From Promethearchaeota archaeon (GTDB lineage: Archaea; Asgardarchaeota; Lokiarchaeia; Sigyniarchaeales; SOKP01): 63,493 bases of DNA. Positions 414-39,462 of this stretch are shown here, piece by piece. Under the pieces are notes generated by a model. It searched no databases, was not told where the DNA came from, and saw only the letters and a program-made list of their open reading frames with translations. Both the position numbers and the translations under genes were made by a program. The stretch's first letter is position 1, and the number at the start of each line of letters is the position of its first letter. The stretch spans positions 1-63,493 of the forward strand of contig DAOUVJ010000001.1 of the NCBI GenBank assembly GCA_030667705.1, written 5' to 3'.

Positions 414-500
414 ATGGAAAATTTAGATAAATATTTAGTACAAATTTTAAGAGCACAAAAAGATTATTCTAGAATTTGGGATTGTGGTAGTTTAAAATTT
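414..500 (+). pseudogene. footprint of the 3' end of a Hef-like homing endonuclease gene
   Basis: Translates as MENLDKYLVQILRAQKDYSRIWDCGSLKF. This matches the C-termini of the three intact paralogs (for example ...WILRAQEGYLKIWDCGSLKF). The 30-mer agaatttgggattgtggtagtttaaaattt is retained at 471-500. Confidence 0.65.
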
Positions 501-531
501 CAAATATCTAATCATCATAGGGAGATTATAA

Positions 532-3500
532 ATGGCAAAAAATATTAAACCACCCCAAGGAACTACCAGTGCAGATTCTGAGAGTCAGTTTAGAGCAAAG
601 AGAATAAACTCTCTTTCTGATCAACTATATCAAATTGAAAATCGTACAACTAAACAAACTCAGAATATTCAAAAACAAATAAAGGAAACCACGAAAGCAA
701 CCGATTCTCTTCAAAAGACAAGTGATTCAAAAGATGTCCAGGATTCGCTTCCTGAAATAAATAAAACTATTGGGAAATTAAATTATACTATTCAAGTTAT
801 GGCCGATGGTATGAAGAAAATAACCCTAAATACGGCAGAGGGAACTAAAAATGCCCTTTCACAATATGGGAAAGCAATAAGTTCAGATATTAATTTAGAT
901 AAACAAAATACAGTTGCTATGGCCCTCTCCAGAACTTCTCCCTTGTTTGGTTATTATGCTGGGAAATTCATGGAAACTGACGTCTTTAAAAATGCCACCA
1001 GTAAAATGTCGGAAAATATTAAAAAGGGAATGGGGAATGTTTGGTCAAGTGTTAAAGGAACAACCCGGGGAATTGCCGACTCTATATCAAATGCTCATAT
1101 AGGAAGAAAAGGAAAAGTAGATTATTCTGAAGAATCAGAAATTGCTTTTGGGAAAGTAAAACCCAGTGTTAAAAGTACTAAACATAGTATTTCTAAACTG
1201 GCAAGAGATTTAAATGTTCAAAAAAGATTAATGAAACCCGCATTAAAAAGTGAAGAAGTTAGTTATTCAGATTTGACTCTTACAAAGATCTCTAATGATA
1301 TTGCAGAATTAAAAGAAAGATCTGGTGATATCCCTAAATTAAGAGAAGGTGGATATGTTGAAAAAGGTGGTCTTGCTGAAATTCACCCGGCAGAAGTTGT
1401 AATGCCAATTGAAAAGATTTTAGACAGAATAGATAAAAATGCCGGACCTGAAAAAGAAAATCAATCAAAAATTGCGGCTGGAATATCTTTAATGTCTAAG
1501 AGTTTTGCTCAAGTTGAAACTTATGTAGGAGATCAAAAAAGAGAAAGAAAAGGATTAGTTTCAGATTTTGTGACTGCATTTAAAACAGCGCAAGATGATG
1601 AATCAAAAACTTGGCAAGATAGATTACTAAAAGCAATTCTTGAATTAAAAGTAGGATTAATTGGAATGACATCAAGATTAAGAATTGCTTGGCAATCCAT
1701 GCTCTTAGACCACCCGGTGATGAGGAATATTTTAATGTTTGGACAAACTCTTAAAACTGCTTTTACCGGGGGATTAAAATTTGTTTTTGGTGCTAGAGGG
1801 GGTGCAGCCAGTAGATTATCCAAAGCTCAAAGAACGTCTAATGTTTTTGATAAAATTGTCAATGTAATATCTTTGATATATATGGATTTTTTACCAAAAT
1901 TAAATGATCTTGTTAAATATTCAAAAGAATCATTAGAATTTCAAACAGGACAAGAAGCTCAGAGTTTTAAAGAACAAACATGGACAATGTTTGATAAAGT
2001 TAAAAATTATATGCAAGGAGAAAGATCAGGAACCTTATTAAAAGATAAAATTATTGATGGTTTAGTTTCTAATTTAGATTTAGACCGTGGATCTGTAGAC
2101 AGTGCTATGGGTGGAGCTAGAAATATTTTTTCAAGGGAGGCGAGAGCAGCAAGAAGAGCAGCAAGAGAGGGAACTCCGGGCCATGCAATTGGTGGAGTTA
2201 TGAGAGAAACTTCAGAAATTCTTGCTCACCGTGGAGAAATTATTCTTCCAGTTAAGAAAGTTTTTGAATTAATTAGTTCATTTTCAAAAGGAGTTTATGA
2301 AATAGTTAAAAGTATTGAGCCTATTAAATTATTAAAGAAAGCTTTAGAAGAAATGACAAAATCTATAAAAACAGTCGCTTCTAATATCTCTCGAATTTCA
2401 GTTGAGACTTTCCAAAAATCAAAAGAAAATGCTGAAGAAATATTTAAAAGAATTCAAGAATGGGATCCTATAGAAAAAACCAAAGAATTTGGAGATAAAT
2501 TTATTAAAAAACCCATTGAAGGAATGAAAGAAAGTATTACAACTACCTGGACAAAAGAATTAGAAAAAGCCAGAGAAACTAGAAGAGAAAAAATATCTAC
2601 TCGCACAAGAAGAGTCGGAGAACAAGTTAAAGATTTTACTCTTGATCCTACTAAAGGAAAAATGGGGAAAACTATAGACAAACTTTTTGAATTTAAAATG
2701 AATTATAGATTAAAAAAAGAAGATGCTTTTGATTTGAAAATGGATAAAAAGCGTTCAAAATTAACACGAAAATATGAAAGAAAAAGTGAAGGTATTACTA
2801 AAAAGTTTTTAGGTCTTTTTGATAAACATGTCGATAAATCTGAAAAATTACATAATCAAAAATTAAGAAAAGTTGAAAAATTATCTAATAGAAGAACTTC
2901 AAATTTTGAAAAGAGAATGGGTAGCATTTCTAATTTAAAAGAAAGATTGGAAGCAAGAAGAATTAAAAAACGGGAGAGAATGAGTGAAACACAAGATGCC
3001 AGAATAGTAAATGCCCAAAGAAAAATATTCTGGAAAGGACATAAAGACAGAACAGATATCCAACATAAAACACAAAAGAAAATATTTAAAGCACAAGAGA
3101 AAGCAGCCAAGGGTGTAATTGAATATCAAAAGGGGATAACAAGTAACTTTCAAAAAGGTTTTAATTTTATATTTAATAGACAAAAAGCAGCCGAAGAAAA
3201 AGAAGCAAAAAAAATTAAAAAACAAATGAAACAACAAAATAAAATTGCAAAGAAAACTGAAAAATCCATTCGAAAAGCAGATAAGATCAAAAGGAAATTA
3301 GATAAAAAACGTGATAAGTGGCAAATTAAAATATCAAAATTAAGAGCAAAAGTTGAAAGTAAACAAGCCAAACAGGGCGCCAAACTCCAAGCCAAAATTG
3401 ATTTTATTACTGCTAAGAAAAAAGCAAAAGTTGAGGCAAAATTAGCAAAAGCTAAATTTAAAGCAGAACTTCCAATGATGTTAAAGAAAGCTAAATTGGC

Positions 3501-5377: not shown

Positions 5378-6556
5378 CTAAAAATTTGGCATTGATGAAG
5401 ATAACTCATTAAATACTTCTGTCGATGTACTTGGAATTCTTGGCCCAGGTATATATGTTTCATCCCGGCTTAAAGATTCGTTTGAAGATCTATTATTTTT
5501 TTCTTTTTTTTTAGATTTCTCAAGTTCTAAAGATAATTGTTTAAAATCTGAACGAAGATAATGATACTCAACATTTGGTTTTTCTTCTTCTAAAACTTTT
5601 AAATAATTATTCAAAGTTGGACGATTTACAATCTCAACATCTCCTTCCTCGCAAACCATACTGCTATAAAGACTACCAAAATCTATTCTGACATCCACGA
5701 TTCCCAATCTTTGATTCCAGCCAATTTGCTGTTGATCTCCTCCTTTTATCACAGTAATGTTAGTTATTACTGCAGGATCTAAAGAAAAAACGCCCGGGCA
5801 TTTTATTTTATGAAAAAATGGCCATCTAAAAGTATTCCCATCTTTTGTAATGGGCGTGGCAAGAGTTAATAATACTGCAAGAGGTCCAATAATCGAATCT
5901 CTTGTTGCATCAAAATTTCCTGGGCAAGGATTAAATAATCTAACTGTCATTGAATAAGATGGAGAAAATCCACTATTTTTCCAAATGTTTGGAAAGTCGA
6001 CTCTGTGCCCAGCAAGCATTTTCCCAACGGTTCCTAATCCCGGTACATTTTCTAATGATTTTATTACAGTTCCCCCAGCATTTGTTAAACTTCCCATCAT
6101 ATCCAAAGCAGACCCAGTATGTCCCCCAACGTGCTTTCCAGCACCTTTTATCATTTCTGCTATTTTTGTAGTTGCACCACTTAAAGTATCACTTCCGGTC
6201 ATTTGAACCATTTCTTGAATTTTCTGTGCTCCAACGTCAGTCATTCCTTGTAAAAAAGTTTCACCATAATCATTTGAAAAACTATCGGTCGGAAAATTAT
6301 CCGCTAAAAATGCAACTTTTATTGGGTGTGTAACTTTATATCCTAAGTTTTGTAAAATACTATCATATTTTTCTGTATTTTCAGTTAGACTAAATAGAGA
6401 CATTCCAGAGGAGAAATTTGGTTCACAGGGAATAATCTCTGCTGTCGGCATAGACTCTATAACTACATGTTTTGAAACATATAAATTATTAAGCGGGGGT
6501 AAACCAAAAATTCCTTCATCTGGTTTTAATGTAATAAGACCTGCTGATTCTGGCAT
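5378..6556 (-). CDS. baseplate / tail-tube-associated protein (T4 gp48/gp54-like, tentative)
   Basis: 392 aa with a Gly/Thr-rich flexible middle. The motif RVDFPNIWKNSGFSPSYSMTVRLFNPCPG...GPLAVLLTLATP resembles my memory of tail-tube cap/initiator proteins. It lies in the baseplate module. Confidence 0.35.
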   Translation of the reverse strand: MPESAGLITLKPDEGIFGLPPLNNLYVSKHVVIESMPTAEIIPCEPNFSSGMSLFSLTENTEKYDSILQNLGYKVTHPIKVAFLADNFPTDSFSNDYGETFLQGMTDVGAQKIQEMVQMTGSDTLSGATTKIAEMIKGAGKHVGGHTGSALDMMGSLTNAGGTVIKSLENVPGLGTVGKMLAGHRVDFPNIWKNSGFSPSYSMTVRLFNPCPGNFDATRDSIIGPLAVLLTLATPITKDGNTFRWPFFHKIKCPGVFSLDPAVITNITVIKGGDQQQIGWNQRLGIVDVRIDFGSLYSSMVCEEGDVEIVNRPTLNNYLKVLEEEKPNVEYHYLRSDFKQLSLELEKSKKKEKNNRSSNESLSRDETYIPGPRIPSTSTEVFNELSSSMPNF

Positions 6557-6579: not shown

Positions 6580-8349
6580 TTAAGAATATATTTGATTAAA
6601 CTTTAGACTTCCACAATCCCAAATTCTTGTATAACCTTCTTTTTGTCTCAAAAGATATTCAGGAATATCTTTTGGTTCACTTGGTCTTTTTCTTAATCCA
6701 AATCTATGGATTCTATCTACGCCTTTTAAGTACCAATAATTTGGTTGAGTTATTTTATCTAATTCAAAACCTAATTGATAATACAAATTTCCTTGAGACC
6801 ATCTTCTATCAGCATAACTAAATATTTGATTCCATTCAAAATTCTTCTTGAAATGAGTTAATAGTTTTCTAGCAATTCCAGGTATGTGATAATTTGAATT
6901 TGAACAAAATCTATTTAGTTCCCAAACTCCTTCTTTTGCCTTTGATCCTTTTGAAATATTACCTTTTCCAAATGTCATAACTGAAACTAATTCTTCATTG
7001 TGAAATGCACCTAATTTAATTTGAGATGCATCTTTTCCTTGAATATGAAACTCTTCTAAAAACTCATTCTTAATTTTTGGATCTATTTCTTTAATTTCAC
7101 ATTTTCTTATATGGAGTCTTTTTAAATCATTATTAACATTTAAAATTTGTTTAATTCTTGATTTAACTATATCTTTTTTAAGCAACCACTCATCTTCAAA
7201 AATATGAATTAATTGAATTCCTTTTTCTTTGCATAAGTTAGTTTTTTGCAGGTGAGAATTAATTGGATCCGGTGATATTGCTTCTGAATGATAATACACG
7301 CCATTATATTCAAATGCTATTTTTCTATCCGGAATATGAATATCTAATTCTAAAAAATGATTAGTTTTTGGATTTTTAATAATATTTCTACAATTATGTT
7401 TAACTTTATCTTCTCCAATTAAATTACAAATAAATTTATAAATTTCTTTTTCAGCATTTGAAGAACCATCTTTTCTTGGATAGCATTTTGGGCAAGTATA
7501 TCCCTGTTGAATTTCGTTCCAAATTTGTCTGAATTTGTGATTGCATTTTAAACATTTCCAATTGTGTTTAAAACCAGCATCAATATATTTTTCATCTAAA
7601 AGTTCTAAATTTAAATGATTTAAATATTTAGTTAATTTCTTTGAAAATGCAATTCTTTGTTTATCCTTTTTCACTTTTTTAATCTCTTCACATTGAGAAT
7701 TATGCTCAACTCTCATAATTTTTAAATTAGTTTGTTTCATCTTTTCTTGGACTTTAGGATCTTGTCCTGCATATTTAACATTTCTAACTCTTAAATTAGT
7801 TTGTATTGATTTTTCTCTAACTTCTTTTGCTTCCATTGGATATCTAACATTTCTAACTCTTAAATTAGTTTGTATTGTCTTTTTTTGAATTTCATCGCAT
7901 TGTGATGGGTGTTTAGTATCCCAATTTTTCAATGAGGTTTGAATTTTCTTTTCTTTAATTATATCTGAATTACTTGGATTATCAACCCCAAGATTTTTTA
8001 AACAAGTTTGTTTATGAATTTCTTTAACTATATCAGCTTGCATTGCATGCTCAACATCGTAAATTTTTAAACAAGTTTCAATTTTTTTCTTTTGAATATC
8101 TGGATCACTTGTAGAGCATCTTGGAGAACAATATTTATGAAAACCTTTGGTAACAGATATAAATTTAGTATATTTTTCACATGAATCTAATTTTCCATAC
8201 ATTTCACAGATGTTATTCACTTTTCCTTTCATTAAAAATTTTGAATAATATTCTTCTTTTGTTATTCCTTTATGATTAAATTTAAGATGGCTTGCTAATC
8301 CTTTTATATTCTTTAATTCTTTTGCGCAGATTGCACATATCATTTTCAC
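6580..8349 (-). CDS. free-standing homing endonuclease, Hef-like (paralog 1)
   Basis: 589 aa. N-terminal C2H2-like finger (CAICAKELKNIKGLASHLKFNH), then tandem ~33-aa K.T.LK...V.NPS..DIIKEKK repeats. Followed by a WKCLKC...CPKC ribbon, a Vsr/PD-(D/E)xK-like LELDIHIPDRKIAFEYNGVYYHSE core, and a C-terminal YHIQG...RIWDCGSLKF domain. Confidence 0.65.
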   Translation of the reverse strand: MKMICAICAKELKNIKGLASHLKFNHKGITKEEYYSKFLMKGKVNNICEMYGKLDSCEKYTKFISVTKGFHKYCSPRCSTSDPDIQKKKIETCLKIYDVEHAMQADIVKEIHKQTCLKNLGVDNPSNSDIIKEKKIQTSLKNWDTKHPSQCDEIQKKTIQTNLRVRNVRYPMEAKEVREKSIQTNLRVRNVKYAGQDPKVQEKMKQTNLKIMRVEHNSQCEEIKKVKKDKQRIAFSKKLTKYLNHLNLELLDEKYIDAGFKHNWKCLKCNHKFRQIWNEIQQGYTCPKCYPRKDGSSNAEKEIYKFICNLIGEDKVKHNCRNIIKNPKTNHFLELDIHIPDRKIAFEYNGVYYHSEAISPDPINSHLQKTNLCKEKGIQLIHIFEDEWLLKKDIVKSRIKQILNVNNDLKRLHIRKCEIKEIDPKIKNEFLEEFHIQGKDASQIKLGAFHNEELVSVMTFGKGNISKGSKAKEGVWELNRFCSNSNYHIPGIARKLLTHFKKNFEWNQIFSYADRRWSQGNLYYQLGFELDKITQPNYWYLKGVDRIHRFGLRKRPSEPKDIPEYLLRQKEGYTRIWDCGSLKFNQIYS

Positions 8350-11968: not shown

Positions 11969-12004
11969 AAATTTTAAACTACCACAATCCCAAATTCTAA
12001 AATA
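11969..12004 (-). pseudogene. 12-codon footprint of a Hef-like homing endonuclease 3' end
   Basis: The minus strand reads YFRIWDCGSLKF, with a stop just upstream. The 30-mer aaattttaaactaccacaatcccaaattct lies at 11969-11998. Confidence 0.6.
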
Positions 12005-12022
12005 TCATTTTTTAGTTTCTTT

Positions 12023-15775: not shown

Positions 15776-17587
15776 TCAATTATTAACCATTTTAAATTTT
15801 AAACTTCCACAATCCCAAATTCTTGCATAATCTTCTTTATATTTTAAATTCAATCTGTGAATTCTTTTGAAACTTTTTATATACCAATAGTCAGGTTTTA
15901 TAATTTGTTCTAATTCAAAACCTAATTGATAATACAAACTTCCTTGAGACCATCTTTTATCCGCATAGGAAAAGATTTTTTCCCATTTATAATTTTTCTT
16001 GAAATAATTTAATAGTTTTCCAGCAATTCCCGGAACATGGAAATTTGAATTTGAACAAAATCTATTCAATGACCAAACTTTTTCCTTATTTTTAAAAGTC
16101 ATAACTGAAATTAATTTATTGTTATAGAAAGCTCCAAGTTTAATATTAGAATTATCATATCCTTGAATGTGATAATTATCTAAGAATTTATTTTTTACTT
16201 TTGAATTTATTTCTTTAATTTTACATTCTTCTTTGTGAATTCTTGTGCCCTTATTAATATTCAAAATATGTCTAATAAGAGATTTAACAATATCTTGTTT
16301 AAATACCCACTCATCCTCAAAAATATGAATTAGTTGAATTCCTAATTTTTTGCATAAATTAGTTTTATGTAAATGATAATTTGAAACTTTAAAATTATCT
16401 AATTTACGAGATTCCTTTAAAACTTTTTCAGAATGCCAATACAATCCATTAAATTCAAAAGCTATTTTTTTATCCGGAATAAATATATCAAGTTCAAGAG
16501 GATATAATAAAGATCTATTATTCACAATTATTTTATTTTTAATTTCATCTTTTATAAAATCAGATAATTCTTTTTCTTTTGAAGAAGATCTATAATTTAT
16601 TGGCGGTCTGCATTTTGGGCAAGTAAAACCCTGTTGAATTAAATTCCAAATTTGAATAAAATGATTTCCACATTTTATGCATTTCCAATTATGTTTATGA
16701 TAACAATTCTTATATTGTTTATCAAGAAGTTCTACATTAAATGAACTTAAAATCTTTTCTAAATATTTAGTAAAAACTTTTAACTTTGTTTCTTTAATTT
16801 TGTTTTTAATTATATCACATTGAGAAGGAATTTTAGTCCCATATTTATTTAAATTAGTCTTAACAATTTTGTCTTTTATTTTTTTAGTTTTAGAAGGATT
16901 GTCAACACCATAAATTTTCACCCAAGCTTTCTTTTTATTTTCCTTAACTATATCTGAACTATTTGGACTTTCAAATCCATATTTTTTTAATGAAGTTATT
17001 TTGCCTTTTTCTCTTACTTCTTTAGATGATAATGAAGATTTCCCTCCATATTTTTCTAAATTAGTCTTTATAACATTGTTTCTAATAATTTGGGATTTCA
17101 TTGGATGAACTTCACCCCAATTTTTTAAAGATGTTTCTCTATATTTATTTTGAATAGTCTTAAGTTGTTCAGGTTTTCCATTAAAATTTTTTCTATATGT
17201 TTCACTTTTTTTCTTTTTAACAATATCAGATTTACTAGCATTGTCTACACCTAACTTTATTATACATGATTCTTTGCATTTCTCTTTCACACTGTCAGCT
17301 TGAAAAACAAATCTCGTTCCATATTTTTCTAAAGATTTTTCTTCCTTTTTCTTTTTAACAAGATTGGATTTACTAACACAACCCGGACCGCAGTATTTAG
17401 AATAACCAGTTTTTAAACCCCTATAACTGGTTATTCTAATGCAGTTTTCATTTTGACAAATTCCTTCATTTGAATCTTTTTTAAGGAACTTATCAAAATA
17501 TTCTTTGGTAGTAAAGTTATGAGTTTTAAGATGTAGAGCAAGTTTTAAAGTATTTGAAAATTCACATTTGCATATTTCACATATCAT
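15776..17587 (-). CDS. free-standing homing endonuclease, Hef-like (paralog 2)
   Basis: 603 aa with the same architecture as 6580-8349: MICEICKCEFSNTLKLALHLKTH, repeats, WKCIKC...CPKC, LELDIFIPDKKIAFEFNGLYWHSE, ...RIWDCGSLKF. Confidence 0.65.
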   Translation of the reverse strand: MICEICKCEFSNTLKLALHLKTHNFTTKEYFDKFLKKDSNEGICQNENCIRITSYRGLKTGYSKYCGPGCVSKSNLVKKKKEEKSLEKYGTRFVFQADSVKEKCKESCIIKLGVDNASKSDIVKKKKSETYRKNFNGKPEQLKTIQNKYRETSLKNWGEVHPMKSQIIRNNVIKTNLEKYGGKSSLSSKEVREKGKITSLKKYGFESPNSSDIVKENKKKAWVKIYGVDNPSKTKKIKDKIVKTNLNKYGTKIPSQCDIIKNKIKETKLKVFTKYLEKILSSFNVELLDKQYKNCYHKHNWKCIKCGNHFIQIWNLIQQGFTCPKCRPPINYRSSSKEKELSDFIKDEIKNKIIVNNRSLLYPLELDIFIPDKKIAFEFNGLYWHSEKVLKESRKLDNFKVSNYHLHKTNLCKKLGIQLIHIFEDEWVFKQDIVKSLIRHILNINKGTRIHKEECKIKEINSKVKNKFLDNYHIQGYDNSNIKLGAFYNNKLISVMTFKNKEKVWSLNRFCSNSNFHVPGIAGKLLNYFKKNYKWEKIFSYADKRWSQGSLYYQLGFELEQIIKPDYWYIKSFKRIHRLNLKYKEDYARIWDCGSLKFKMVNN

Positions 17588-18053: not shown

Positions 18054-19700
18054 TTAAAATATAACATTATTCTTTAAAGCATTAAATTTTAAACTTCCAC
18101 AATCCCAAATTTTAAGATATCCTTCTTGAGCCCTTAAAATCCATTCTGGAATATCTTTTGGTTCATCTTTAGTTTTTCTTAATCCGAATCTATGAATTCT
18201 ACTATAATCTTTTAAGTACCAATAATTAGGATTAGTAATATGTTCTAATTCAAATCCTAATATGGTATAAAGATTTCCTTGACTCCATCTTCTATCTGAA
18301 TATGAAAAGATTTCTTTCCATTCAAAATTCTTCTTGAAATAACTTAATAGTTTTCCAGCAATTCCTGGAATATGATAATCTGAATTTGAACAAAATCTAT
18401 TTAGTTCCCAAACTTTATCTTGGGATCTGGATCCTTTTGAAATATTTCCTTTTCCAAAAGTCATAACTGAAATTAATTTCTCATTATAAAAAGCTCCAAG
18501 TTTAATTTTAGAAGCATCTTTTCCTTGAATATGATATGTTTCTAAAAACTCATTTTTAACTTTTGGATCTATTTCTTTTATTATACATTTTCTTGCATGA
18601 ATTCTTTTATTATCATTAATATTCAAAATTTGTTTAATACGGGATTTAACTATATCTTGTTTAAACATCCATTCATCTTCAAAAATATGAATTAATTGGA
18701 TTCCTAATTTTTCACATTCAATTGTTTTATTTAAATGATAGTTTGGAGATTGTTCTGAATGCCAATAAAATCCATCATATTCAATTGCTATTTGTTTGGA
18801 TGGAATATAAATATCAATTTCCCAATTTCTATTTGTTTTTGGATTTTTAATTAAATTCCAACAATTATGTTCAACTTTATCAGACCCAATTAAATCACAA
18901 ATAAAATTATAAATCTCTTGTTCTGCAATTGAAGTTCCCATCAGTCTGGGGAAACATTTTGGACATTGATATCCTTGTTGAACACTATTATACAAATGCA
19001 CAAAAATTGTATTACAAATTTTACATTTGAATTTATAATCTATATGAGCATGCTCATATTTATTTAAAAGTATCAGATTTCTGTCTTCAAGAAATTTTTC
19101 TAATTTAAGAAAAAAGTTTTTCATATATGTATGTTTACTTTTAAGTTTAAACTTTTCAACTTTCATTGGGCTATCAACACCATATTTTTGAATGTATGTG
19201 TTTTTTAGCTTTTGTTTAATATCAGGATCATACATTGGGTGACCACCAAACTTCTCATCAAATGTCTTTTGTCTTTTTTCTTTAACCCAATCTAAACCAT
19301 AAAAGTTGTCTGTATTATATTTCTCTTTTAATGAAACTAATAATGTATCATAATGAGCAGCTTTTAAACTTCCATAATTTTTAATAGCAGTTTTCTTTTT
19401 CTTTTCTTTAACCCAATCTAATTTTGAAATATTATCAACATTATATTTTTTCTTCATAGATTCTTTTAAAACTTTATTTGTTTCTTGTGGGGTTGGACAA
19501 GGGTCATGACAATATTTTCTAAAACCTTCTTTCATATTCATATAAGTAGTTTTAGAACCACATTCTTTACATAACCCTTCTCCAGGTAATTTTATATATT
19601 TTGAATAATATTCTTGATGAGTAATTTTATGAATCTTAATATGTTTTGATAAACTATTCAAATTTTTTAATTCTTTTTCACAAATTTCACATTTAATCAT
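18054..19700 (-). CDS. free-standing homing endonuclease, Hef-like (paralog 3)
   Basis: 548 aa: MIKCEICEKELKNLNSLSKHIKIH, repeats, FKCKIC...CPKC, WEIDIYIPSKQIAIEYDGFYWHSE, ...KIWDCGSLKF. Confidence 0.65.
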   Translation of the reverse strand: MIKCEICEKELKNLNSLSKHIKIHKITHQEYYSKYIKLPGEGLCKECGSKTTYMNMKEGFRKYCHDPCPTPQETNKVLKESMKKKYNVDNISKLDWVKEKKKKTAIKNYGSLKAAHYDTLLVSLKEKYNTDNFYGLDWVKEKRQKTFDEKFGGHPMYDPDIKQKLKNTYIQKYGVDSPMKVEKFKLKSKHTYMKNFFLKLEKFLEDRNLILLNKYEHAHIDYKFKCKICNTIFVHLYNSVQQGYQCPKCFPRLMGTSIAEQEIYNFICDLIGSDKVEHNCWNLIKNPKTNRNWEIDIYIPSKQIAIEYDGFYWHSEQSPNYHLNKTIECEKLGIQLIHIFEDEWMFKQDIVKSRIKQILNINDNKRIHARKCIIKEIDPKVKNEFLETYHIQGKDASKIKLGAFYNEKLISVMTFGKGNISKGSRSQDKVWELNRFCSNSDYHIPGIAGKLLSYFKKNFEWKEIFSYSDRRWSQGNLYTILGFELEHITNPNYWYLKDYSRIHRFGLRKTKDEPKDIPEWILRAQEGYLKIWDCGSLKFNALKNNVIF

Positions 19701-33063: not shown

Positions 33064-33095
33064 AAGATTAATCCTATAAAAAAGGATATTAGAAA

Positions 33096-33677
33096 ATGAA
33101 AATTAAAACAGATTTTGTGACAAATAGCTCAAGCACAAATTATATAATAAGTGAAGAATATTCATCCGGAGATCCATACAGTCCAGTAGATCAAAACTTT
33201 ACATATTTAAATTTCAAAAATATAACCAACAATTTCATAAATACAGTAGAATCTATTTTACCTACTAGGAACTTTTCAGAATTGAATATACATTCAATAA
33301 AAGAAGATGACGTTATAATTTGTTTATTTGGTAGTGTGGAAAAATTAGAATTTGAATCTGCAGTATTTTCTAATTATAATTTCATATTTAAATTAGACAG
33401 GTTTTTAAGTTTTTATTCTACATATACTACATTCCAAAATATAATCGATGTAGAATTTGCCATGAATAGATTAGTTTCTAAATTTTTTAAAAAAGTGTTT
33501 TCGGTTGAAAATATTTCTTTATTGATGCATTCAAGAAAAGTTACTGATTTTTCTGGAGATGGGTGGAATAGTGGAGATCCATGTTTTGGTCATTATGGGG
33601 AAACATCAATATGTCAAGAAGCCGTAAATATACTAGAAAAATCATCATTACATAAAGGAGAATTTATTAGAAAATGA
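33096..33677 (+). CDS. MKIKxDFVTNSSS-family protein, divergent member 4
   Basis: 193 aa with N-terminus MKIKTDFVTNSSSTNY. The rest is unrelated by eye to members 1-3. Confidence 0.6.
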   Translation: MKIKTDFVTNSSSTNYIISEEYSSGDPYSPVDQNFTYLNFKNITNNFINTVESILPTRNFSELNIHSIKEDDVIICLFGSVEKLEFESAVFSNYNFIFKLDRFLSFYSTYTTFQNIIDVEFAMNRLVSKFFKKVFSVENISLLMHSRKVTDFSGDGWNSGDPCFGHYGETSICQEAVNILEKSSLHKGEFIRK

Positions 33678-34195
33678 AAATTAAAACAGATTTTGTAACA
33701 AATAGTTCAAGCACAAATTATATGTTTATTTTTAAAGGAAATACAAAAGAAGAATTGTATACAATATTAAAAAAATATTCTGACTCTTTTAATCTTGAAC
33801 ATGAAGATTATGATAAAACAAAATCTAATATTACAGTGAAGGATATCATAGATTCAATTGAAGAATGTATTGACCAGATCCTACCAGATTATGTAGTAAG
33901 TGTAAAAATTAAGCCAATTGATATTCTAATTGAAAAAATTAGAAAAATTAAAAAATCATATGAGAACCATGATGATAATGATTGGTATGACGAAATTATT
34001 ATGCGATATTTAAAATTATATGATTCAACTAAAACTGCAAAGAAAATTGGTTTAAATTCTTATTTGGAAATTGAATTTGGAGATAATGATGGACATATAT
34101 GTGGCGGAAGAATTGGAGATACAATGGACTATGAGGGGAGGCATATTCGCTTAAGTAATGATGAAATTATGCTATTAACAGATGGGATGAGATAA
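33674..34195 (+). CDS. MKIKxDFVTNSSS-family protein, divergent member 5
   Basis: 173 aa with N-terminus MKIKTDFVTNSSSTNY. It overlaps the previous gene by ATGA. Confidence 0.6.
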   Translation: MKIKTDFVTNSSSTNYMFIFKGNTKEELYTILKKYSDSFNLEHEDYDKTKSNITVKDIIDSIEECIDQILPDYVVSVKIKPIDILIEKIRKIKKSYENHDDNDWYDEIIMRYLKLYDSTKTAKKIGLNSYLEIEFGDNDGHICGGRIGDTMDYEGRHIRLSNDEIMLLTDGMR

Positions 34196-34225
34196 CAATT
34201 TTTGAAAAGGAGAATTTATAATATA

Positions 34226-34624
34226 ATGAAAATTAAAATGGATTTTGTGACAAATAGTTCTTCATGTTCTTTTGTATTCTTAGGTTTTGAAATGAAAAAG
34301 AGTGATATGTCATTTCGTGATCTAATTAAAAAAATATTTCCATTAAAAAATTTCAAAGAATATAAAGAAAATGAATATGAAGAACTATTTTATGAGTTAG
34401 TTTATGATCAAAAGGATTTTGATATTTTATATGATCAAGAAGATGGAAGCATATCAGATGATATTTGTTTAATTGGATATGAGCTTCTGACTATCTCTGA
34501 TGAGGATTGGAGTTATAATGAAGTTCCAATTTTAGATTATATTGAAAAAGTTAAAATACTTCGAACAAAATTTGAAGGAAATCAGAGTCTTATTAAAATT
34601 TATGGATCAATGAGAATGTGTTAA
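34226..34624 (+). CDS. MKIKxDFVTNSSS-family protein, divergent member 6
   Basis: The ATG at 34226 is preceded by AAAGGAG (the tracked 34202 start is TTG). N-terminus MKIKMDFVTNSSSCSF. Confidence 0.6.
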   Translation: MKIKMDFVTNSSSCSFVFLGFEMKKSDMSFRDLIKKIFPLKNFKEYKENEYEELFYELVYDQKDFDILYDQEDGSISDDICLIGYELLTISDEDWSYNEVPILDYIEKVKILRTKFEGNQSLIKIYGSMRMC

Positions 34625-34648
34625 CAATTTTTAAAAGGGAAAAAGAAT

Positions 34649-34879
34649 ATGAAAAAGCTGGACGAATTAATTGTAGTAATAATAGGAATTCTTGTTGGAG
34701 TTTTAATCTTAACAATTGGAGCATATTACGTTCATAAAGATTTTCAAATATCACAATCTATAAAAAATGGGAAGAATCCTGTCTCGATAGGCATAGCATT
34801 TGATAATTCTTATGCTAACCATGAAAAAATGATTTATCTCTTAAAAGAAAAATTCGAAGAGTCAAATAATTCTAAATAG
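34649..34879 (+). CDS. small single-pass membrane protein
   Basis: 76 aa with TM segment LIVVIIGILVGVLILTIGAYYV. Confidence 0.5.
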   Translation: MKKLDELIVVIIGILVGVLILTIGAYYVHKDFQISQSIKNGKNPVSIGIAFDNSYANHEKMIYLLKEKFEESNNSK

Positions 34880-34893
34880 AGATGAGATTATAT

Positions 34894-34945
34894 ATTTAGA
34901 CATCCTTTATAAAATACGAACTATTAAAATGAAGGATGTCTAAAT
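34894..34945 (+). terminator. long hairpin ending the radical-SAM cluster
   Basis: 14-bp perfect stem atttagacatcctt / aaggatgtctaaat with a 24-nt loop. Confidence 0.45.
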
Positions 34946-34998
34946 ATTATGAAAAGGAGATAAAAATATAATTCATGTGTTAGATTTTGGAGGATTTT

Positions 34999-35199
34999 AT
35001 GGGAGCAGAATCGGCAAGATTATATAACTATAACCAGGCAAAACAGGTTGTTGACAGTTTAGGAAGGATTATTAGCAGAATTAATAAAAAACATACTCCA
35101 ACCTGGATGAGAAAAGAACTGGAGTATGCTTATCATAAAACACAATGTATACAACAAGAACATGAAAGGATAATGCTTAGTTTTGGTGAAAAAATATAA
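34999..35199 (+). CDS. hypothetical protein
   Basis: A GGAGG SD precedes the ATG at 34999 (the tracked start at 34987 is TTG). Confidence 0.45.
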   Translation: MGAESARLYNYNQAKQVVDSLGRIISRINKKHTPTWMRKELEYAYHKTQCIQQEHERIMLSFGEKI

Positions 35200-35221
35200 C
35201 CAGTATATTTCAGGAGATAAA

Positions 35222-35434
35222 ATGCAAATCGAAATCTCAGATCAACATATTAAAAATTTGGCAAAGGTTAATAATCTGAAAATAAATGATATGAATAAGT
35301 TGCAAAAATATTTCAAATTTAAAGCAGGTGATGAAGCACAAGAAAATGGAGCAACTTATTTATGTATTTTTATAGAGCAATTGTTACGCTTGGCTTATGA
35401 AGATGATGCAGGAGTTGAACTAATAGAAATATAA
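35222..35434 (+). CDS. hypothetical protein
   Basis: CAGGAG SD before the ATG at 35222. N-terminus MQIEISDQHIKNL... Confidence 0.45.
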   Translation: MQIEISDQHIKNLAKVNNLKINDMNKLQKYFKFKAGDEAQENGATYLCIFIEQLLRLAYEDDAGVELIEI

Positions 35435-35506
35435 AAGCCGTGATAGATGAACTAAATAAGCATAGTCATTATTCGTTATAATGTTTGAGATTTGAAGGAG
35501 AAAAAG

Positions 35507-35968
35507 ATGGCAATAGAAAAGATATATATTGATAAAACACTTTCTGTTAAACAAATCGAACAAAAATATAGTATCCATCTCCGTACATCTTATAGAGTCA
35601 AAAAAAGAGGTTACATAATAAAAAAAACAAAAACGATTAACATTTCAAGAAAAGATTTTGACTATAATAAAGCAAAAAAAGCATCTGCATATACTTATTT
35701 TTATAAAATTAAACAGATTGTCCCGTGCCATTTTTTGTCATTAAACAATTTTTACGATGATTTACAACAAGAGGGGATTATTAGATGTTTTGAATTATCT
35801 GGAGAAACCAGAAAGGATAAAAACAATAATAAGTTTGGTTACTATTGCAAGATTGCTGAATATGCCATGTATAGTTTTTTAAAAAAAGTTCATATGCTCG
35901 GAAGTTATAATAACAAAACCGTAAGTTTTGAAGAAAATATCTCAGGACATGGAATTTACGAAATCTAA
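35507..35968 (+). CDS. putative DNA-binding / sigma-like transcription factor (tentative)
   Basis: GAAGGAG SD before the ATG at 35507. Has an N-terminal HTH-like segment (LSVKQIEQKYSIHLRTSYRVKKRG). The segment DDLQQEGIIRCFEL...FGYYCKIAEYAMYSFLKK is reminiscent of sigma-70 region 2. Confidence 0.3.
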   Translation: MAIEKIYIDKTLSVKQIEQKYSIHLRTSYRVKKRGYIIKKTKTINISRKDFDYNKAKKASAYTYFYKIKQIVPCHFLSLNNFYDDLQQEGIIRCFELSGETRKDKNNNKFGYYCKIAEYAMYSFLKKVHMLGSYNNKTVSFEENISGHGIYEI

Positions 35969-36036
35969 CCGTTTAGGCCAATTAATAATTATATAAAAGA
36001 GAAAAATAATTAATAAAAACTAGTGGGGAAATCTAA

Positions 36037-36237
36037 ATGAACAAATGTCCAGTATGTGGTAAAATGTGGGAACCATGTTATTTGTGCAGGCAAGGTGAAA
36101 GACATCAGAAATGTGTTTATGATTCAATGTGCCATGATTGTATAATGGAAGAAAAATATGGTTCCCAAGAATCAGATAATACAACAATAGTACCGAATAG
36201 TGTTTTAAAAGTGATTTTGAAAAATAATTCAGATTGA
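36037..36237 (+). CDS. Cys-rich small protein
   Basis: 66 aa with CPVC...CYLC...C...CHDC. Confidence 0.45.
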   Translation: MNKCPVCGKMWEPCYLCRQGERHQKCVYDSMCHDCIMEEKYGSQESDNTTIVPNSVLKVILKNNSD

Positions 36238-36268
36238 GATATATTTTTTATATTGAAAGGAGATAAAA

Positions 36269-36463
36269 ATGTACGACAAAATTCAAAGAACAGAAGTGTG
36301 TGATGGCAAATATACTCATGTTTTTGATGAACAAACTGGAAGACAATATGTAGAACGATATGGTGAAAAGTGGCGCGATTTAGCCGGGGATGGTTTTATT
36401 TTGGCTTTATGTCAGCGCATTTGGGAACTTGAAAAACGCCCAGGATATGCGGATGATACATAA
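36269..36463 (+). CDS. hypothetical protein
   Basis: 64 aa with a strong AAGGAG SD. Confidence 0.5.
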   Translation: MYDKIQRTEVCDGKYTHVFDEQTGRQYVERYGEKWRDLAGDGFILALCQRIWELEKRPGYADDT

Positions 36464-36501
36464 TTATAACACATTATGATCATTAAATTGGGAGACAAAA
36501 A

Positions 36502-36693
36502 ATGAAAAATTATGAAGTAAGTATAGAAACGGAAACAGTCGGGGAAAAAGAATTGACATATTTATATGTTTTTCATCAAGGTAATCATTATAAAACTGGG
36601 GTAAAAATTGACGATCCAATAATTGAAATCCCATTGATAATAGAAACACTGGTTCGTCATTTGGTTAAATGTGCCCAATCGAAAAAGACATAA
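36502..36693 (+). CDS. hypothetical protein
   Basis: 63 aa with a GGGAG SD. Confidence 0.45.
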   Translation: MKNYEVSIETETVGEKELTYLYVFHQGNHYKTGVKIDDPIIEIPLIIETLVRHLVKCAQSKKT

Positions 36694-36721
36694 ATTTCAT
36701 AATATTTTCATGTTAAAAATC

Positions 36722-36740
36722 AATTACTATATATATTAAT
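36722..36740 (+). promoter_or_regulatory. conserved promoter-like 19-mer aattactatatatattaat
   Basis: Identical to 22383-22401. It ends 54 nt upstream of the ATG at 36795. Confidence 0.4.
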
Positions 36741-36794
36741 TTATAGAAAGAAATATTTATTAACTTATTAATTTTAAGGATTAAGGAGAGAAAA

Positions 36795-36977
36795 ATGCAA
36801 AATTTTATTTGTGTAGATAGAAACGGTAAGGAAACAATATTAACAAAAGAAATAGCAGATTTTTGGTTTGAACATGGATTGGAAACAATTCGTAATCTGA
36901 AACCAGATGCTTTTGAAATTATATCAAAAGTAAATGGTGGGGCACATAATGGCGGATTTGATATAGTCTCCAACTAA
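36795..36977 (+). CDS. hypothetical protein
   Basis: 60 aa with a TAAGGAG SD. I prefer it to the overlapping antisense ORF 36713-36973. Confidence 0.45.
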   Translation: MQNFICVDRNGKETILTKEIADFWFEHGLETIRNLKPDAFEIISKVNGGAHNGGFDIVSN

Positions 36978-37003
36978 CAAAAAGGGGAATATTGAACAAA
37001 GAG

Positions 37004-37032
37004 AAAGAGATTTAATTTAGATCTCTTTTTTT
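37004..37032 (+). terminator. rho-independent terminator ending the plus-strand block
   Basis: Stem aaagagat / atctcttt with a 9-nt loop, followed by TTTT. Confidence 0.55.
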
Positions 37033-37050
37033 GTTAATTTTTTGTTTAAA

Positions 37051-37224
37051 AAATTTTAAACTTCCACAATCCCAAATTCTTAAGTATCCTTCTCCAGGTT
37101 TTCGAAGAAATTTATCGTAATAGAATTTGATATTTGTTTTGCAAGAAGATTTTGGATAATTTAGGTGGGAAACTAAACCTTGGGAAGTTTTGAATTGTCT
37201 ATTACATATAAGGCAGGTGAGTAT
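37051..37224 (-). pseudogene. miniaturised Hef-like homing endonuclease relic (N-terminal finger fused to the last 10 codons; ATG mutated to ATA)
   Basis: The minus strand has AAGGAG, 6 nt, then ATA, then LTCLICNRQFKTSQGLVSHLNYPKSSCKTNIKFYYDKFLRKPGEGY joined directly to LRIWDCGSLKF. This is 58 in-frame codons, so about 500 internal codons are missing relative to the intact paralogs. Confidence 0.65.
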
Positions 37225-37250
37225 ATTTTTCTCCTTAACTGAAAAATTAA

Positions 37251-37324
37251 AATAAAATATGGAGTTAGAAAGATTGCTAAGGAATCTCTCAAAGGGAGCT
37301 ACCCTCTGTCCTCCATATTTTATT
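37251..37324 (-). terminator. 74-nt structured element downstream of the sheath gene
   Basis: 14-bp closing stem aataaaatatggag / ctccatattttatt around a 46-nt G+C-richer interior with two short hairpins (agatt..aatct; aggg-agcta-ccct). Confidence 0.35.
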
Positions 37325-37337: not shown

Positions 37338-39272
37338 TTATTTAATAAAGAAGTTCAATTCGATTTTTTCTAAAATTCTCACTGGCGTAAGGGTAATGTC
37401 CACTGCACATGTCTTTCGTTTTTTCATATAATCTGTGCTATACACACTCACTTCATAAGAATCTAATCCTCTTCTCTGTTTAATATTCTCCAAAAATTCA
37501 ACTATTTCTCCATTTATCAGATCCCAAGTAATAGAATCATTTTGTTCAAATGGAAAAAATTTACAGAAATTACTTATTGCTTTTTGACAATATAAAACTA
37601 ATCTTACAATGTTTAAATCCTGAAGAGCACTCGGTTTAGCTTGAGCAGTCAATTGCCCCCAAAGTGTATTGCCCTCAAGGAATTTTACTATTGGATTTAA
37701 TTGTTTCAGATACATACTATCTCTTTCACCTATTTTTGGACTATATCTCAATTCTTTAATAGAATCAATCGCTCCCCGAGTAAAACCAGCCGCAGCATAC
37801 CAAATCTCACCCACTGCATCATTTCTCGGTAACAAATAAGCCATATGGTAACATGGAGAAAACCATACATCTTGTCCAGTAAATGTATCATAAACTTTAT
37901 TATAAGATTCATAAAGAGCAACAAAATAATTATTAAAATTATGAGTATTTAATCTTGCGTCATATGCAAGAGTAAAAGATGCATTATCTCCATTATCCAA
38001 AATTCCTACACAATCTCTTCTGGTTGTAACTAAAGTATTAATTGAAGTTTTTACGTCGGTTGGATATCCACAATCAAATACTAAATTAAAATTAAGAAAT
38101 TCAGTATCTAAAATACTATCATCAATATTTCCTGCATATCCGCTACTAAGAAGCTGAGTGGCTATCGTAGTATTAAGACTTCCATCTGCATTTTTTAATT
38201 CTCCATCTGAACCTTTTTTCAATGGAGCCGGTTCTGAAATAACAAAAGGTTGAGAAATATTTGCAAAGTTCTTTTTAATAGTATAAACTATATCTGTAGA
38301 ATCTTCATCAAATAAAGAAACGCTATCATTCCAACCCCTTGATGTCAATGATCTATCTTGATAAACTGCACAAGATTCATTATCATCTCCGGAAGAAATT
38401 CCCAGCCATCCCCAAATTTTATTTCCTGTTCCGTCAACGGCAGTAATTACATATCTGGCAGATCCTAAAGATTGTTCCCAATCAGTAAAAACTTGTTTAT
38501 TATCTGTAATTAAAGCGGTCGCTCCATCTTTATCAAGTGAAATTGTTCCAATATTTTTATCAAAAACTTTAACAGCAATATCATATCCGTCAGACCAATC
38601 TTCATTTGTTTTTGACATATCTGCTCTGAGAACAGAAGAATATGAATTTAAAATATATTCAATAAAAAGTGAATCTCCGGCAGTGTCAACCGCATTTGGA
38701 TCAAAAGAAACATCAAAAGATTCTATAATAACATCATCTCCATCACTTTGTTTTTCATAGATATCTATCACATATACAGAGCTTATCATTGGGTTAGAGT
38801 ATTCTGATAATCTAACACCAATATTATTATAATATTCTCCCCTTCCAATTGGATATAAGAAACACAGAGCTTCAGAATTTGATGTAATATCTGAATCAAT
38901 TTCTACTTTTGTATTTATATCATCAACATAAGTAATAGAGATTGTTGCAGTCGAGTCAACAGTTTCGGCAGCATCTATTCTTATATTAGAAAAAGATGCA
39001 TTATCTGGAAGACAACGCATAAAGAAAGCAGAGCCGCTTTCTCCGAGGAAATTGTACATAGAATATAATCCCTGGCCATAGTTTTTGCCGTAATGGGAAA
39101 TATTAGGTTCTCCCCATTTTGAAATTAAATCTGATCTTCCCCCAACAAACATTAATTCATTATCGGGACCTTTCTCAGTCAATGCACATACAAGTCCGGT
39201 ACTTGCAGGAACAGCTTGTAAATAAGTACTGAGGTCTATAATTTTAACGTAAACACCTGGTGAAATAGCCAT
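37338..39272 (-). CDS. tail sheath protein (T4 gp18-like)
   Basis: 644 aa. N-terminus MAISPGVYVKIIDLS...GLVCALTEKGPDNELMFVGGRSDLISKWGEP, and C-terminus ...LNPIVKFLEGNTLWGQLT...LNIVRLVLY; both are typical of contractile sheath proteins. AAGGAG SD. Confidence 0.8.
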   Translation of the reverse strand: MAISPGVYVKIIDLSTYLQAVPASTGLVCALTEKGPDNELMFVGGRSDLISKWGEPNISHYGKNYGQGLYSMYNFLGESGSAFFMRCLPDNASFSNIRIDAAETVDSTATISITYVDDINTKVEIDSDITSNSEALCFLYPIGRGEYYNNIGVRLSEYSNPMISSVYVIDIYEKQSDGDDVIIESFDVSFDPNAVDTAGDSLFIEYILNSYSSVLRADMSKTNEDWSDGYDIAVKVFDKNIGTISLDKDGATALITDNKQVFTDWEQSLGSARYVITAVDGTGNKIWGWLGISSGDDNESCAVYQDRSLTSRGWNDSVSLFDEDSTDIVYTIKKNFANISQPFVISEPAPLKKGSDGELKNADGSLNTTIATQLLSSGYAGNIDDSILDTEFLNFNLVFDCGYPTDVKTSINTLVTTRRDCVGILDNGDNASFTLAYDARLNTHNFNNYFVALYESYNKVYDTFTGQDVWFSPCYHMAYLLPRNDAVGEIWYAAAGFTRGAIDSIKELRYSPKIGERDSMYLKQLNPIVKFLEGNTLWGQLTAQAKPSALQDLNIVRLVLYCQKAISNFCKFFPFEQNDSITWDLINGEIVEFLENIKQRRGLDSYEVSVYSTDYMKKRKTCAVDITLTPVRILEKIELNFFIK

Positions 39273-39382
39273 AGTTTCTCCTTTTTAAATTTTTTAATTC
39301 TCTAATTTGATTATTTCTCTATGAATAAAATCACCTTTCTTTTCAATCTCTATATTATCCATTTTAAAGAACCGCGCCTAGT

Positions 39383-39462
39383 ATATCTTTTGGTTCATTT
39401 GATCTTTTCTTAAATCTATGGAAACCTTTTAAGTACCAATAATTTGTTCTAATTCAAATCCT
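39383..39462 (-). pseudogene. heavily deleted footprint of a Hef-like homing endonuclease C-terminal region
   Basis: Aligns by eye, with several deletions, to 18141-18260 of paralog 3 (atatcttttggttcat...cttttcttaa...atctatg...ccttttaagtaccaataatt...tgttctaattcaaatcct). Confidence 0.5.

What the first reader, a model, noticed from the sequence alone, without database searches (positions are those of the whole stretch)
414..39462. One homing-endonuclease family present as three intact genes and four decayed footprints that all keep the same 3'-terminal 30-mer
Seen in the sequence: intact paralogs at 6580-8349, 15776-17587 and 18054-19700 occupy more than 5 kb of the baseplate/tail module, each wedged between conserved structural genes. 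Fragments of the same gene occur at 414-500 (plus strand, upstream of the tape measure gene), 11969-12004, 37051-37224 and 39383-39462. Six of these seven loci keep AGAATTTGGGATTGTGG(A/T)AGTTTAAAATTT (RIWDCGSLKF) nearly unchanged; the 39383-39462 footprint has lost it. Inference: there have been repeated cycles of invasion and decay. Preferential survival of the extreme 3' end suggests it now serves another role, such as part of a terminator/promoter or RBS context for the downstream structural gene, or a recombination or homing-site sequence.
Basis: partly seen in the sequence, partly recalled or inferred. Interest (0 to 1): 0.6.

Follow-up and report, generated by a model that had tools for sequence, protein, structure and literature searches.

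The report
Decaying Hef-like homing endonuclease genes
An uncultured large tailed phage carries three working copies and several deletion stumps of a known selfish nuclease gene. The shared 30-base piece is the gene's best-conserved protein motif sitting near its end, so this is an ordinary, if tidy, case of selfish-gene invasion and decay.

Summary
The 30-mer occurs six times with 0-2 mismatches, against 0 expected by chance. Three intact paralogs (41-52% aa identity) and four remnants lie in the window, and a fifth remnant lies on contig C93.

The genes are Hef-like free-standing homing endonucleases. Each has a Zn finger, DUF7487 repeats, a Vsr/I-Bth0305I-like nuclease and a Mom-like GNAT-fold domain.

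Invasion and decay are supported. Seven related viral contigs have short junctions with no endonuclease gene. One relative (L019) has a full-length, frameshifted ortholog exactly where remnant F3 sits.

A second role for the 30-mer is not supported.
- It encodes the family-wide terminal beta-hairpin (RIWDCGSLKF) in the phage's mostly preferred codons.
- Its synonymous conservation (6/8 codons) does not differ from the rest of the gene (111/190).
- Nothing beyond it is conserved, and it matches no promoter-like motif.
- F4 has lost it.

Remnants are mostly internal deletions that keep both gene ends. The variable 5' heads are simply unrecognisable: an HMM detects 0-37% of them, against 94-100% of tails. 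Any deletion confined to the gene keeps the last 50 nt.

Tail stumps are nevertheless common family-wide (8 of 92 motif hits in IMG/VR). A downstream-expression role or truncated-on-arrival copies remain minor possibilities.

The parts
6580..8349 (-). Intact Hef-like homing endonuclease gene A (likely start ATG 8343), between baseplate gene 8359-9474 and structural gene 5378-6556
   Evidence: phrog_3339 E 1e-107; DUF7487, treble-clef Zn and Mom-like hits. Relatives have no endonuclease gene at this junction.
15776..17587 (-). Intact Hef-like homing endonuclease gene B, between 17597-18028 and baseplate hub-like gene 14970-15761
   Evidence: phrog_3339 E 8e-108. L010 has g17597 followed directly by g14970, about 115 nt apart; L008 has tube followed by g14970, 37 nt apart.
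18054..19700 (-). Intact Hef-like homing endonuclease gene C, directly downstream of the tail tube gene
   Evidence: phrog_3339 E 5e-114. The nuclease domain matches I-Bth0305I (3r3p, E 0.009). AlphaFold model of aa 270-548 has pLDDT 92.6, and its C-terminal domain matches phage Mu Mom (8bv8, E 3e-9).
390..515 (+). Remnant F1: C-terminal ~45 codons with an in-frame internal loss, exact 30-mer at 471-500, 31 nt before the tape-measure ATG (532). No recognisable head.
   Evidence: tblastn E 2e-6; HMM positions 514-539, 25.6 bits. Closest to the C93 remnant, sharing the ...KFQIS tail.
11969..12012 (-). Remnant F2: 44 nt, an exact 30-mer plus 14 decayed nt (TGA stop created). It sits in an 85-nt spacer between 12023-12670 and the baseplate wedge gene 9475-11937.
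   Evidence: (I4: 91% identical to F1 over 44 nt). The same junction is about 20-45 nt in relatives and has no 30-mer.
37012..37227 (-). Remnant F3: N-terminal 49 codons fused in frame to the C-terminal tail at a GAAGGA (E-G) microhomology. The start codon reads ATA. It is followed by a terminator-like hairpin and lies directly downstream of the tail sheath gene 37338-39272.
   Evidence: The head is 60% identical to the N-terminus of the full-length gene at the same position in L019. Sheath identity.
39382..39465 (-). Remnant F4: a piece of the C-terminal region (LGFELEQI..YWYLKG..RIHRF..LRK..EPKDI) with at least 3 internal deletions and stops. The 30-mer is lost, though a possible GGTTCTTTAAAATGG (GSLKW) relic lies 13 nt further on. 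It sits between 39466-40146 and the sheath gene.
   Evidence: tblastn E 5e-4; alignment. Relatives have 52-175 nt here with no endonuclease gene.

Best explanation
**What the window is.** The window is part of an uncultured large myovirus, probably jumbo-sized, whose tail and baseplate module has been colonised repeatedly by free-standing Hef-like homing endonuclease genes.

**Inferred life cycle.** By analogy with phage U5 Hef, each gene encodes a nuclease that cuts genomes lacking it near its own locus and is copied in by break repair. This step is inferred. Once fixed, a copy is useless and is lost by deletion.

**How the remnants arose.** Deletions that stay inside the gene are the only harmless ones, because the flanking genes are structural and the spacers are 10-50 nt. 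Remnants therefore consist of the gene's two ends.

**Why the 30-mer recurs.** The 30-mer lies 18-30 nt before the stop codon. It encodes the invariant terminal beta-hairpin (R/K-I-W-D-C-G-S-L-K-F) of the Mom-like GNAT-fold domain, in the phage's mostly preferred AT-rich codons. It is therefore both almost always retained and the only end piece conserved enough to be recognised. Its identity among remnants reflects recent derivation from selected genes, possibly helped by gene conversion. It does not reflect a new DNA-level function.
For: **Family and domains:**

**The motif is family-wide:** PA5oct RIWDSGSTKW, RaK2 KIFDCGNFKF, LIMEstone1 RIWGCGLIRY, Campylobacter phage IIYDCGNMKF. In the model it forms strands 260-263 and 267-273 with a DCG turn.

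**Codon usage:** AGA 69%, GAT 87%, TGT 82%, AAA 88%, TTT 88%, GGA 53%, ATT 54%, TTA 58%. Ser AGT (25%) is the only codon used that is not the preferred one. Identical codons at invariant residues: 6/8 in the motif against 111/190 elsewhere.

**Other conserved blocks:** 27/30 and 26/30 invariant nucleotides.

**Sites without the gene in relatives:**

**Full-length frameshifted ortholog at the F3 site in L019:**. An independent, convergently oriented copy lies after the sheath gene in L026. Known phages also have Hef-like genes next to the sheath gene.

**Head plus tail remnants:** F3, F5, L023, L077, L071, L080, L089 and L108.

**Detection bias, measured:** N-terminal pieces of 20-80 aa are found by the family HMM in 0-37% of trials. 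C-terminal or nuclease pieces of 20-30 aa are found in 83-100%.

**No conservation beyond the 30-mer:** the sequence after it and the distance to the next ATG vary (31, 41, 31, 32, 55 nt, or a terminator).

**F4** lacks the 30-mer.
Against: - In F2 the 14 nt upstream of the 30-mer differ from F1 at 4 positions in the ungapped comparison (my own reading of the two strings is one substitution plus two offsetting indels), creating a stop. The 30-mer has none (Fisher p about 0.007 by hand, small numbers).
- F1 and F2 both place the 30-mer exactly 31 nt before the downstream ATG.
- Six to nine remnants show no recognisable head.
- Remnants are much shorter than single random deletions would leave, so either several rounds of deletion or selection for compactness must be assumed.
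- Four of about five head-tail fusions whose frame I checked are in frame. This could hint at selection.
Confidence: 0.75

Rival explanations
1. The gene's 3' tail has been co-opted for expression of the downstream structural gene. It could provide a ribosome standby or translational-coupling context, or a promoter, so deletions that remove it are selected against.
For: - The tail ends 31-55 nt before a co-oriented ATG with a Shine-Dalgarno site at five of six window loci.
- The F1 and F2 tail reading frames run into the downstream start codon.
- Several IMG/VR remnants have their stop overlapping or abutting the next ATG, with the Shine-Dalgarno site inside the tail (L077, L118).
- Tail stumps make up 8 of 92 C-motif hits, against 0-2 of 110 tail-less pieces for a nuclease-core motif.
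Against: - In relatives lacking the gene, the same downstream genes follow their neighbours after 20-45 nt with no such element.
- F3 and L071 keep the tail although only a terminator or a convergent gene follows.
- The sigma-70-type scan is no better than shuffles: 134 sites against 113.5 expected.
- The only recurring intergenic motif, TTACTATATATATTAAT, is unrelated to the 30-mer.
- F4 lost the 30-mer directly upstream of the highly expressed sheath gene.
Confidence: 0.12
2. Tail-only remnants were truncated on arrival. Break repair started from a cut downstream of the donor gene, copied its 3' end first, and aborted by microhomology joining, analogous to 5'-truncated LINE insertions.
For: - Tail-only remnants without a detectable head exist (F1, F2, L123, L131, L138, L148).
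- Their length distribution is skewed to short tails: 12 of 14 have 60 or fewer codons upstream of the motif.
- The core motif essentially never survives without the tail.
Against: - At least half of the remnants carry a head, so they derive from full-length insertions.
- Short heads are undetectable, so 'tail-only' is not secure.
- The cleavage sites of these enzymes are unknown.
- F1 and F4 show additional internal deletions typical of gradual decay.
Confidence: 0.08
3. The in-frame head-tail mini-ORFs (F5, L077, L023 and possibly F3) are expressed as small proteins with a function of their own, for example interfering with related endonucleases.
For: F5 and L077 have a Shine-Dalgarno site, an ATG and an uninterrupted frame. 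Four of about five head-tail fusions whose frame I checked are in frame (my count).
Against: - F3 has ATA in place of ATG, and F2 and F4 contain stops.
- Junction points differ in every case, so there is no common product.
- A terminal beta-hairpin alone cannot fold as the GNAT-like domain.
- In-frame joining follows from microhomology between two in-frame E-G codon pairs.
Confidence: 0.03

Closest known systems
Hef (homing endonuclease-like function) of T4-related phage U5 and the Hef-like free-standing genes of LIMEstone1 (F-LimIII, VII, VIII, X), PA5oct, RaK2 and Campylobacter phages (Sandegren et al. 2005, cited in PMC3296691; PHROG 3339/559)
   Same: - Full-length profile matches (E 1e-107 to 5e-114).
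- The same nuclease plus C-terminal domain and the same terminal motif.
- Several paralogs per genome.
- Intergenic, free-standing position in structural modules, repeatedly next to the sheath, tube and baseplate wedge genes.
   Different: - At most 40% aa identity to any deposited phage.
- Activity and target sites are untested here.
- The window adds a set of deletion remnants, plus sites without the gene and an occupied site in relatives, that documents the decay phase.
I-Bth0305I / EDxHD family (PDB 3r3p), a Vsr-like PD-(D/E)xK homing endonuclease
   Same: The nuclease core (aa 291-357 of gene C) aligns with the 3r3p catalytic domain (E 0.009). Klebsiella phage Muenster's homolog is annotated 'homing endonuclease EDxHD'.
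   Different: I-Bth0305I is intron-encoded and lacks the Mom-like C-terminal domain. The genes here are free-standing.
Phage Mu Mom (PDB 8bv8), a GNAT-fold DNA-modification enzyme
   Same: The C-terminal ~180 aa fold like Mom (Foldseek E 3e-9, TM 0.59-0.62; Pfam Mom E 6e-6, just under the cut-off).
   Different: Sequence identity is only 15-18%. The catalytic residues were not examined. Here the domain is fused to a nuclease and probably serves DNA binding or recognition, which is an inference.
The homing endonuclease life cycle (invasion, fixation, degeneration, loss; Goddard and Burt 1999, from my own knowledge)
   Same: Intact, frameshifted (L019), internally deleted (F3, F5), heavily decayed (F1, F4) and absent states all occur at homologous junctions.
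   Different: The cycle was described for intron-borne genes in yeast mitochondria. Here it is seen for free-standing genes in a phage, with several paralogs decaying in parallel.

Membership tests
Hef-like free-standing homing endonucleases (PHROG 3339 / 559) | Full-length sequence similarity to family profiles and to annotated Hef-like genes | tested here: met
   phrog_3339 E 1e-107, 8e-108 and 5e-114; phrog_559 E 1e-83 to 6e-72. tblastn covers 98% of PA5oct 'Hef-like homing endonuclease' at 33% identity.
Hef-like free-standing homing endonucleases (PHROG 3339 / 559) | Free-standing intergenic gene that is present or absent at a given junction among related genomes | tested here: met
   All three intact genes and F2-F4 sit at junctions that are 20-250 nt and lack the gene in L007-L013, L024 and L025. 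The junction is occupied in L019 and L026.
Hef-like free-standing homing endonucleases (PHROG 3339 / 559) | Site-specific cleavage near its own locus and homing in mixed infection | not testable with these tools
   No cultured phage or host.
Vsr-like / EDxHD PD-(D/E)xK nuclease fold | Sequence similarity of the core to I-Bth0305I/Vsr-type nucleases, with conserved acidic and His residues | tested here: met
   3r3p E 0.009 over aa 291-357. Pfam MTES_1575 E 3e-4, below its cut-off. E38, E47, H53, K56 and E74 are invariant in the 63-sequence alignment. phrog_559 members carry a VSR superfamily signature (PMC11878797). Catalytic residue assignment was not checked against the structure.
Mom-like GNAT fold (Pfam PF25680) | Pfam gathering score | tested here: not met
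   26.5 and 22.2 bits against a cut-off of 27.1.
Mom-like GNAT fold (Pfam PF25680) | Structural similarity to Mom / GNAT acyltransferases | tested here: met
   Model pLDDT 92.6. The top PDB match is Mom 8bv8 (E 3e-9), followed by many GNATs. This shows a shared fold, not Mom activity.
Functional DNA element (promoter, terminator or recombination site) in the 30-mer | Conservation beyond what coding explains, fixed spacing to a target, or a match to a recurring regulatory motif | tested here: not met

The most novel reading that the evidence does not exclude
Short 3' tails of Hef-like genes are kept, or created, non-randomly across many phages. Either the last ~60 nt has become part of the downstream gene's expression signal, or copies are truncated on arrival by abortive break repair. 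In both cases this would give free-standing homing endonuclease genes a LINE-like 'dead-on-arrival' or exapted footprint class.
Probability: 0.15. Interest if true: 0.5.

Novelty: new member of a known kind. Interest (0 to 1): 0.25.

Why it matters
The locus is a clean natural series of one selfish-gene family caught in every stage of its life cycle inside a phage structural module. The stages are absent, intact, frameshifted, internally deleted and nearly erased.

It is useful as an annotation lesson. A short, perfectly conserved repeat scattered through a phage genome can simply be the recognisable end of decayed mobile genes.

Two side results may interest specialists:
- Hef-like endonucleases combine a Vsr-like nuclease with a Mom-like GNAT-fold domain.
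- About 9% of occurrences of the terminal motif in IMG/VR are stumps.

None of this changes current understanding of homing endonucleases.

Tried and rejected
- **Deposited phages.** Megablast of 15 kb of the window found nothing.
- **Exact 30-mer in IMG/VR.** No hits.
- **Sequencing runs and read mapping** for polymorphism in presence or absence of the gene.
- **Relatives covering the F1 junction.** None were found with the tape-measure N-terminus. The records behind the related loci end before that junction.
- **Sigma-70 promoter and terminator scan.** Not above shuffles, so uninformative in 29% GC DNA.
- **k-mer search of upstream regions.** It found a different motif, not the 30-mer.
- **F2 as a head-tail fusion** based on ATGATAT. 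I dropped this after seeing that the 14 nt align better with F1's ...AAAAAGATTATTCT.
- **F4 extending into the end of gene 39466-40146.** Rejected because that C-terminus is conserved in relatives.
- **L070 as a 6-codon stump.** It is a near full-length pseudogene with a premature stop.
- **Earlier scan notes searched by sequence.** Nothing found.


Full report
**1. The observation**

The 30-mer AGAATTTGGGATTGTGGWAGTTTAAAATTT occurs six times in the 63.5-kb window with 0-2 mismatches. None of 100 shuffles gave any match. The three long ORFs are present as described. They are paralogs with 41-52% aa identity.

tblastn and a family HMM recover the four remnants:
- F1 at 390-515(+)
- F2 at 11969-12012(-)
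- F3 at 37012-37227(-)
- F4 at 39382-39465(-)

The window is a whole contig (C134) of a 3.1-Mb bin. A fifth remnant (F5) lies on contig C93, just after a terminase large-subunit gene.

The 30-mer is not the extreme 3' end. Five to nine codons and the stop follow it.

**2. What the genes are**

All three match PHROG 3339 ('homing endonuclease', E 1e-107 to 5e-114) and PHROG 559 over nearly their full length. Pfam finds DUF7487 repeats, a treble-clef zinc ribbon, a weak REase_MTES_1575 hit and a near-threshold Mom hit.

tblastn finds 420 phage records. The annotated ones include 'Hef-like homing endonuclease' (PA5oct), 'hef' (RaK2), F-LimVIII (LIMEstone1) and 'homing endonuclease EDxHD' (Muenster), all at 40% identity or less.

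- The nuclease core aligns with the I-Bth0305I catalytic domain (3r3p, E 0.009).
- An AlphaFold model of residues 270-548 of gene C, built on a 63-sequence alignment, has pLDDT 92.6.
- Its C-terminal domain is most similar to phage Mu Mom (8bv8, E 3e-9), and after that to GNAT acetyltransferases.

Published Hef-like genes also come in several copies per genome and sit next to baseplate wedge, tube and sheath genes (PMC3296691).

**3. Invasion and decay**

Seven IMG/VR contigs encode a baseplate wedge protein 51-66% identical to 9475-11937 and keep the gene order. They contain no Hef-like gene and no 30-mer-like sequence. The junctions that hold A, B, C and F2 in the window are 20-250 nt in these contigs.

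Around the sheath gene:
- L008 and L025 lack the endonuclease gene.
- L026 has an independent Hef-like gene convergent with the sheath gene.
- L019 has a full-length gene with one frameshift directly after the sheath gene.

The N-terminus of the L019 gene is 60% identical to the head of F3, including the odd 'SHL..K.SC' insertion.

Absent, intact, frameshifted, internally deleted and nearly erased states thus all exist at homologous junctions.

**4. Is the 30-mer special?**

Among the intact genes it is the best 30-nt window, with 28/30 invariant positions. Three other blocks reach 27, 27 and 26.

The residues RIWDCGSLKF are conserved across the whole family. They form the final beta-hairpin of the GNAT-like domain: strands 260-263 and 267-273 with a D-C-G turn.

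The codons used are the phage's preferred ones for every residue except Ser (AGT, 25%). At residues invariant in A, B and C, identical codons occur at 6/8 sites in the motif and 111/190 sites elsewhere, which is no excess.

Downstream of the 30-mer nothing is conserved, and the distance to the next start codon varies.

A sigma-70-type scan is uninformative: 134 sites against 113.5 in shuffles. The only recurring intergenic motif in the window, TTACTATATATATTAAT, is unrelated to the 30-mer.

F4 has lost the first two-thirds of the 30-mer.

**5. Why the tail survives**

- F3 is a single in-frame deletion joining codon 49 to the tail at a shared GAAGGA. Its start codon now reads ATA.
- F5 joins 10 N-terminal codons to 46 C-terminal ones.
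- F1 and F4 carry extra internal deletions.
- F2 is 44 nt long. I found no recognisable head in F1, F2 or F4.

To see whether tail survival is general, I scanned IMG/VR for the terminal motif (IWDCGxLK[FY]) and, as a control, for a nuclease-core motif (IHIFEDEW). Both scans were capped at 120 loci. I then classified every copy with an HMM built from 146 full-length genes.
- Terminal motif: 8 of 92 non-edge, de-duplicated hits lie in short remnants.
- Core motif: 0-2 of 110 lie in copies lacking the tail. Both flagged cases look intact or edge-limited.
- With 8/92 against 2/110, Fisher p = 0.046. With 0 in place of 2 it would be lower still.

Tail stumps are therefore a general feature of the family.

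Two checks remove the need for a special function.
- Pieces of the variable N-terminal region are almost never detectable: 0-37% for 20-80 aa, against 83-100% for 20-30 aa pieces of the nuclease or C-terminus. Heads would be missed.
- When remnant upstream sequence is compared with the diverse N-termini of intact family members, heads do appear in F3, L023, L077, L089 and L108. L071 and L080 show heads in the HMM scan, and F5 shows one by eye.

At least 8 of about 15 remnants are therefore plain internal deletions that keep both ends.

A deletion confined to a 1.7-kb gene keeps the last 50 nt unless a breakpoint falls inside those 50 nt. Overshooting into the next gene's ribosome-binding site is harmful. 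Retention of the 30-mer in 4 of 5 remnants is what random deletion predicts.

**6. Residual doubts**

- F2's 14 nt upstream of the 30-mer have decayed relative to F1, while the 30-mer is untouched.
- F1 and F2 share the GGT variant and the same 31-nt spacing to the next ATG.
- Six to nine remnants have no visible head.
- Remnants are shorter than a single random deletion would leave.

These points keep two minority readings alive. One is a role of the tail in downstream translation or transcription. The other is copies truncated on arrival by abortive repair synthesis.

**7. Verdict**

This is a real and neatly documented case of a known family following a known life cycle. The proposed second function of the 30-mer is not supported. 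I class it as a new member of a known kind, of low to moderate interest.

Noticed in passing
window 5378-6556 (-), compared with L007-L011: The structural gene 5378-6556 is inverted relative to all related contigs. In those it follows the tape-measure gene on the same strand and converges on the baseplate genes. In the window it lies downstream of endonuclease gene A on the baseplate strand. Inversion of an [endonuclease gene + structural gene] unit would explain this.
   Followed up: partly
window 20400-37300: In relatives the order is sheath, HAD-like gene, tube, contiguously (L008), or sheath then tube (L025). In the window about 15 kb of mostly plus-strand accessory genes separates the sheath (37338-39272) from the homolog of 21829-22320. 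F3 sits at the sheath-side boundary. L010 has a 3-kb insert at the same place.
   Followed up: partly
window 20436-20681 (-) and 20767-21714 (-): Rfam finds a complete group I intron (RF00028, 111.9 bits) just upstream of the tail tube ORF. The adjacent 315-aa ORF has weak HNH endonuclease matches and is absent from relatives. A second, unrelated kind of mobile element therefore sits in the same module.
   Followed up: partly
L004 (G000 contig C93) 1313-1537 (-): Downstream of remnant F5 lies a chimeric ORF. It combines a copy of the next gene's start (MTKQIKEIF) with a duplicated piece of the terminase Walker-B region (PEKCLRGQ..LIIDDA). This looks like a repair scar near a cleavage site in the terminase gene.
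   Followed up: no
window 22385-22401, 36724-36740, 50557-50573 (+), 53392-53408 (-): The near-palindromic motif TTACTATATATATTAAT recurs at the heads of gene blocks: 9 matches at 3 or fewer mismatches against 3.5 expected, including two exact copies. It is a candidate phage promoter or operator.
   Followed up: partly
whole window / genome G000: Earlier notes describe the bin as an Asgard archaeon. This contig, however, has a group I intron, Hef-like genes otherwise known from bacteriophages, and Shine-Dalgarno sites. Its relatives are fragments estimated at 5-9% of a genome for 20-26 kb, which implies jumbo phages. It is probably a bacteriophage contig binned by composition (28.9% GC).
   Followed up: partly
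window 18054-18893 (gene C aa 270-548) and family: The conserved C-terminal domain of Hef-like endonucleases has a Mom-like GNAT fold (Foldseek E 3e-9 to 8bv8). I found no paper in the library stating this.
   Followed up: partly
L024 3773-10345: A related contig has sheath-gene segments duplicated and interleaved with Kelch-like repeats homologous to window gene 42172-43545.
   Followed up: no
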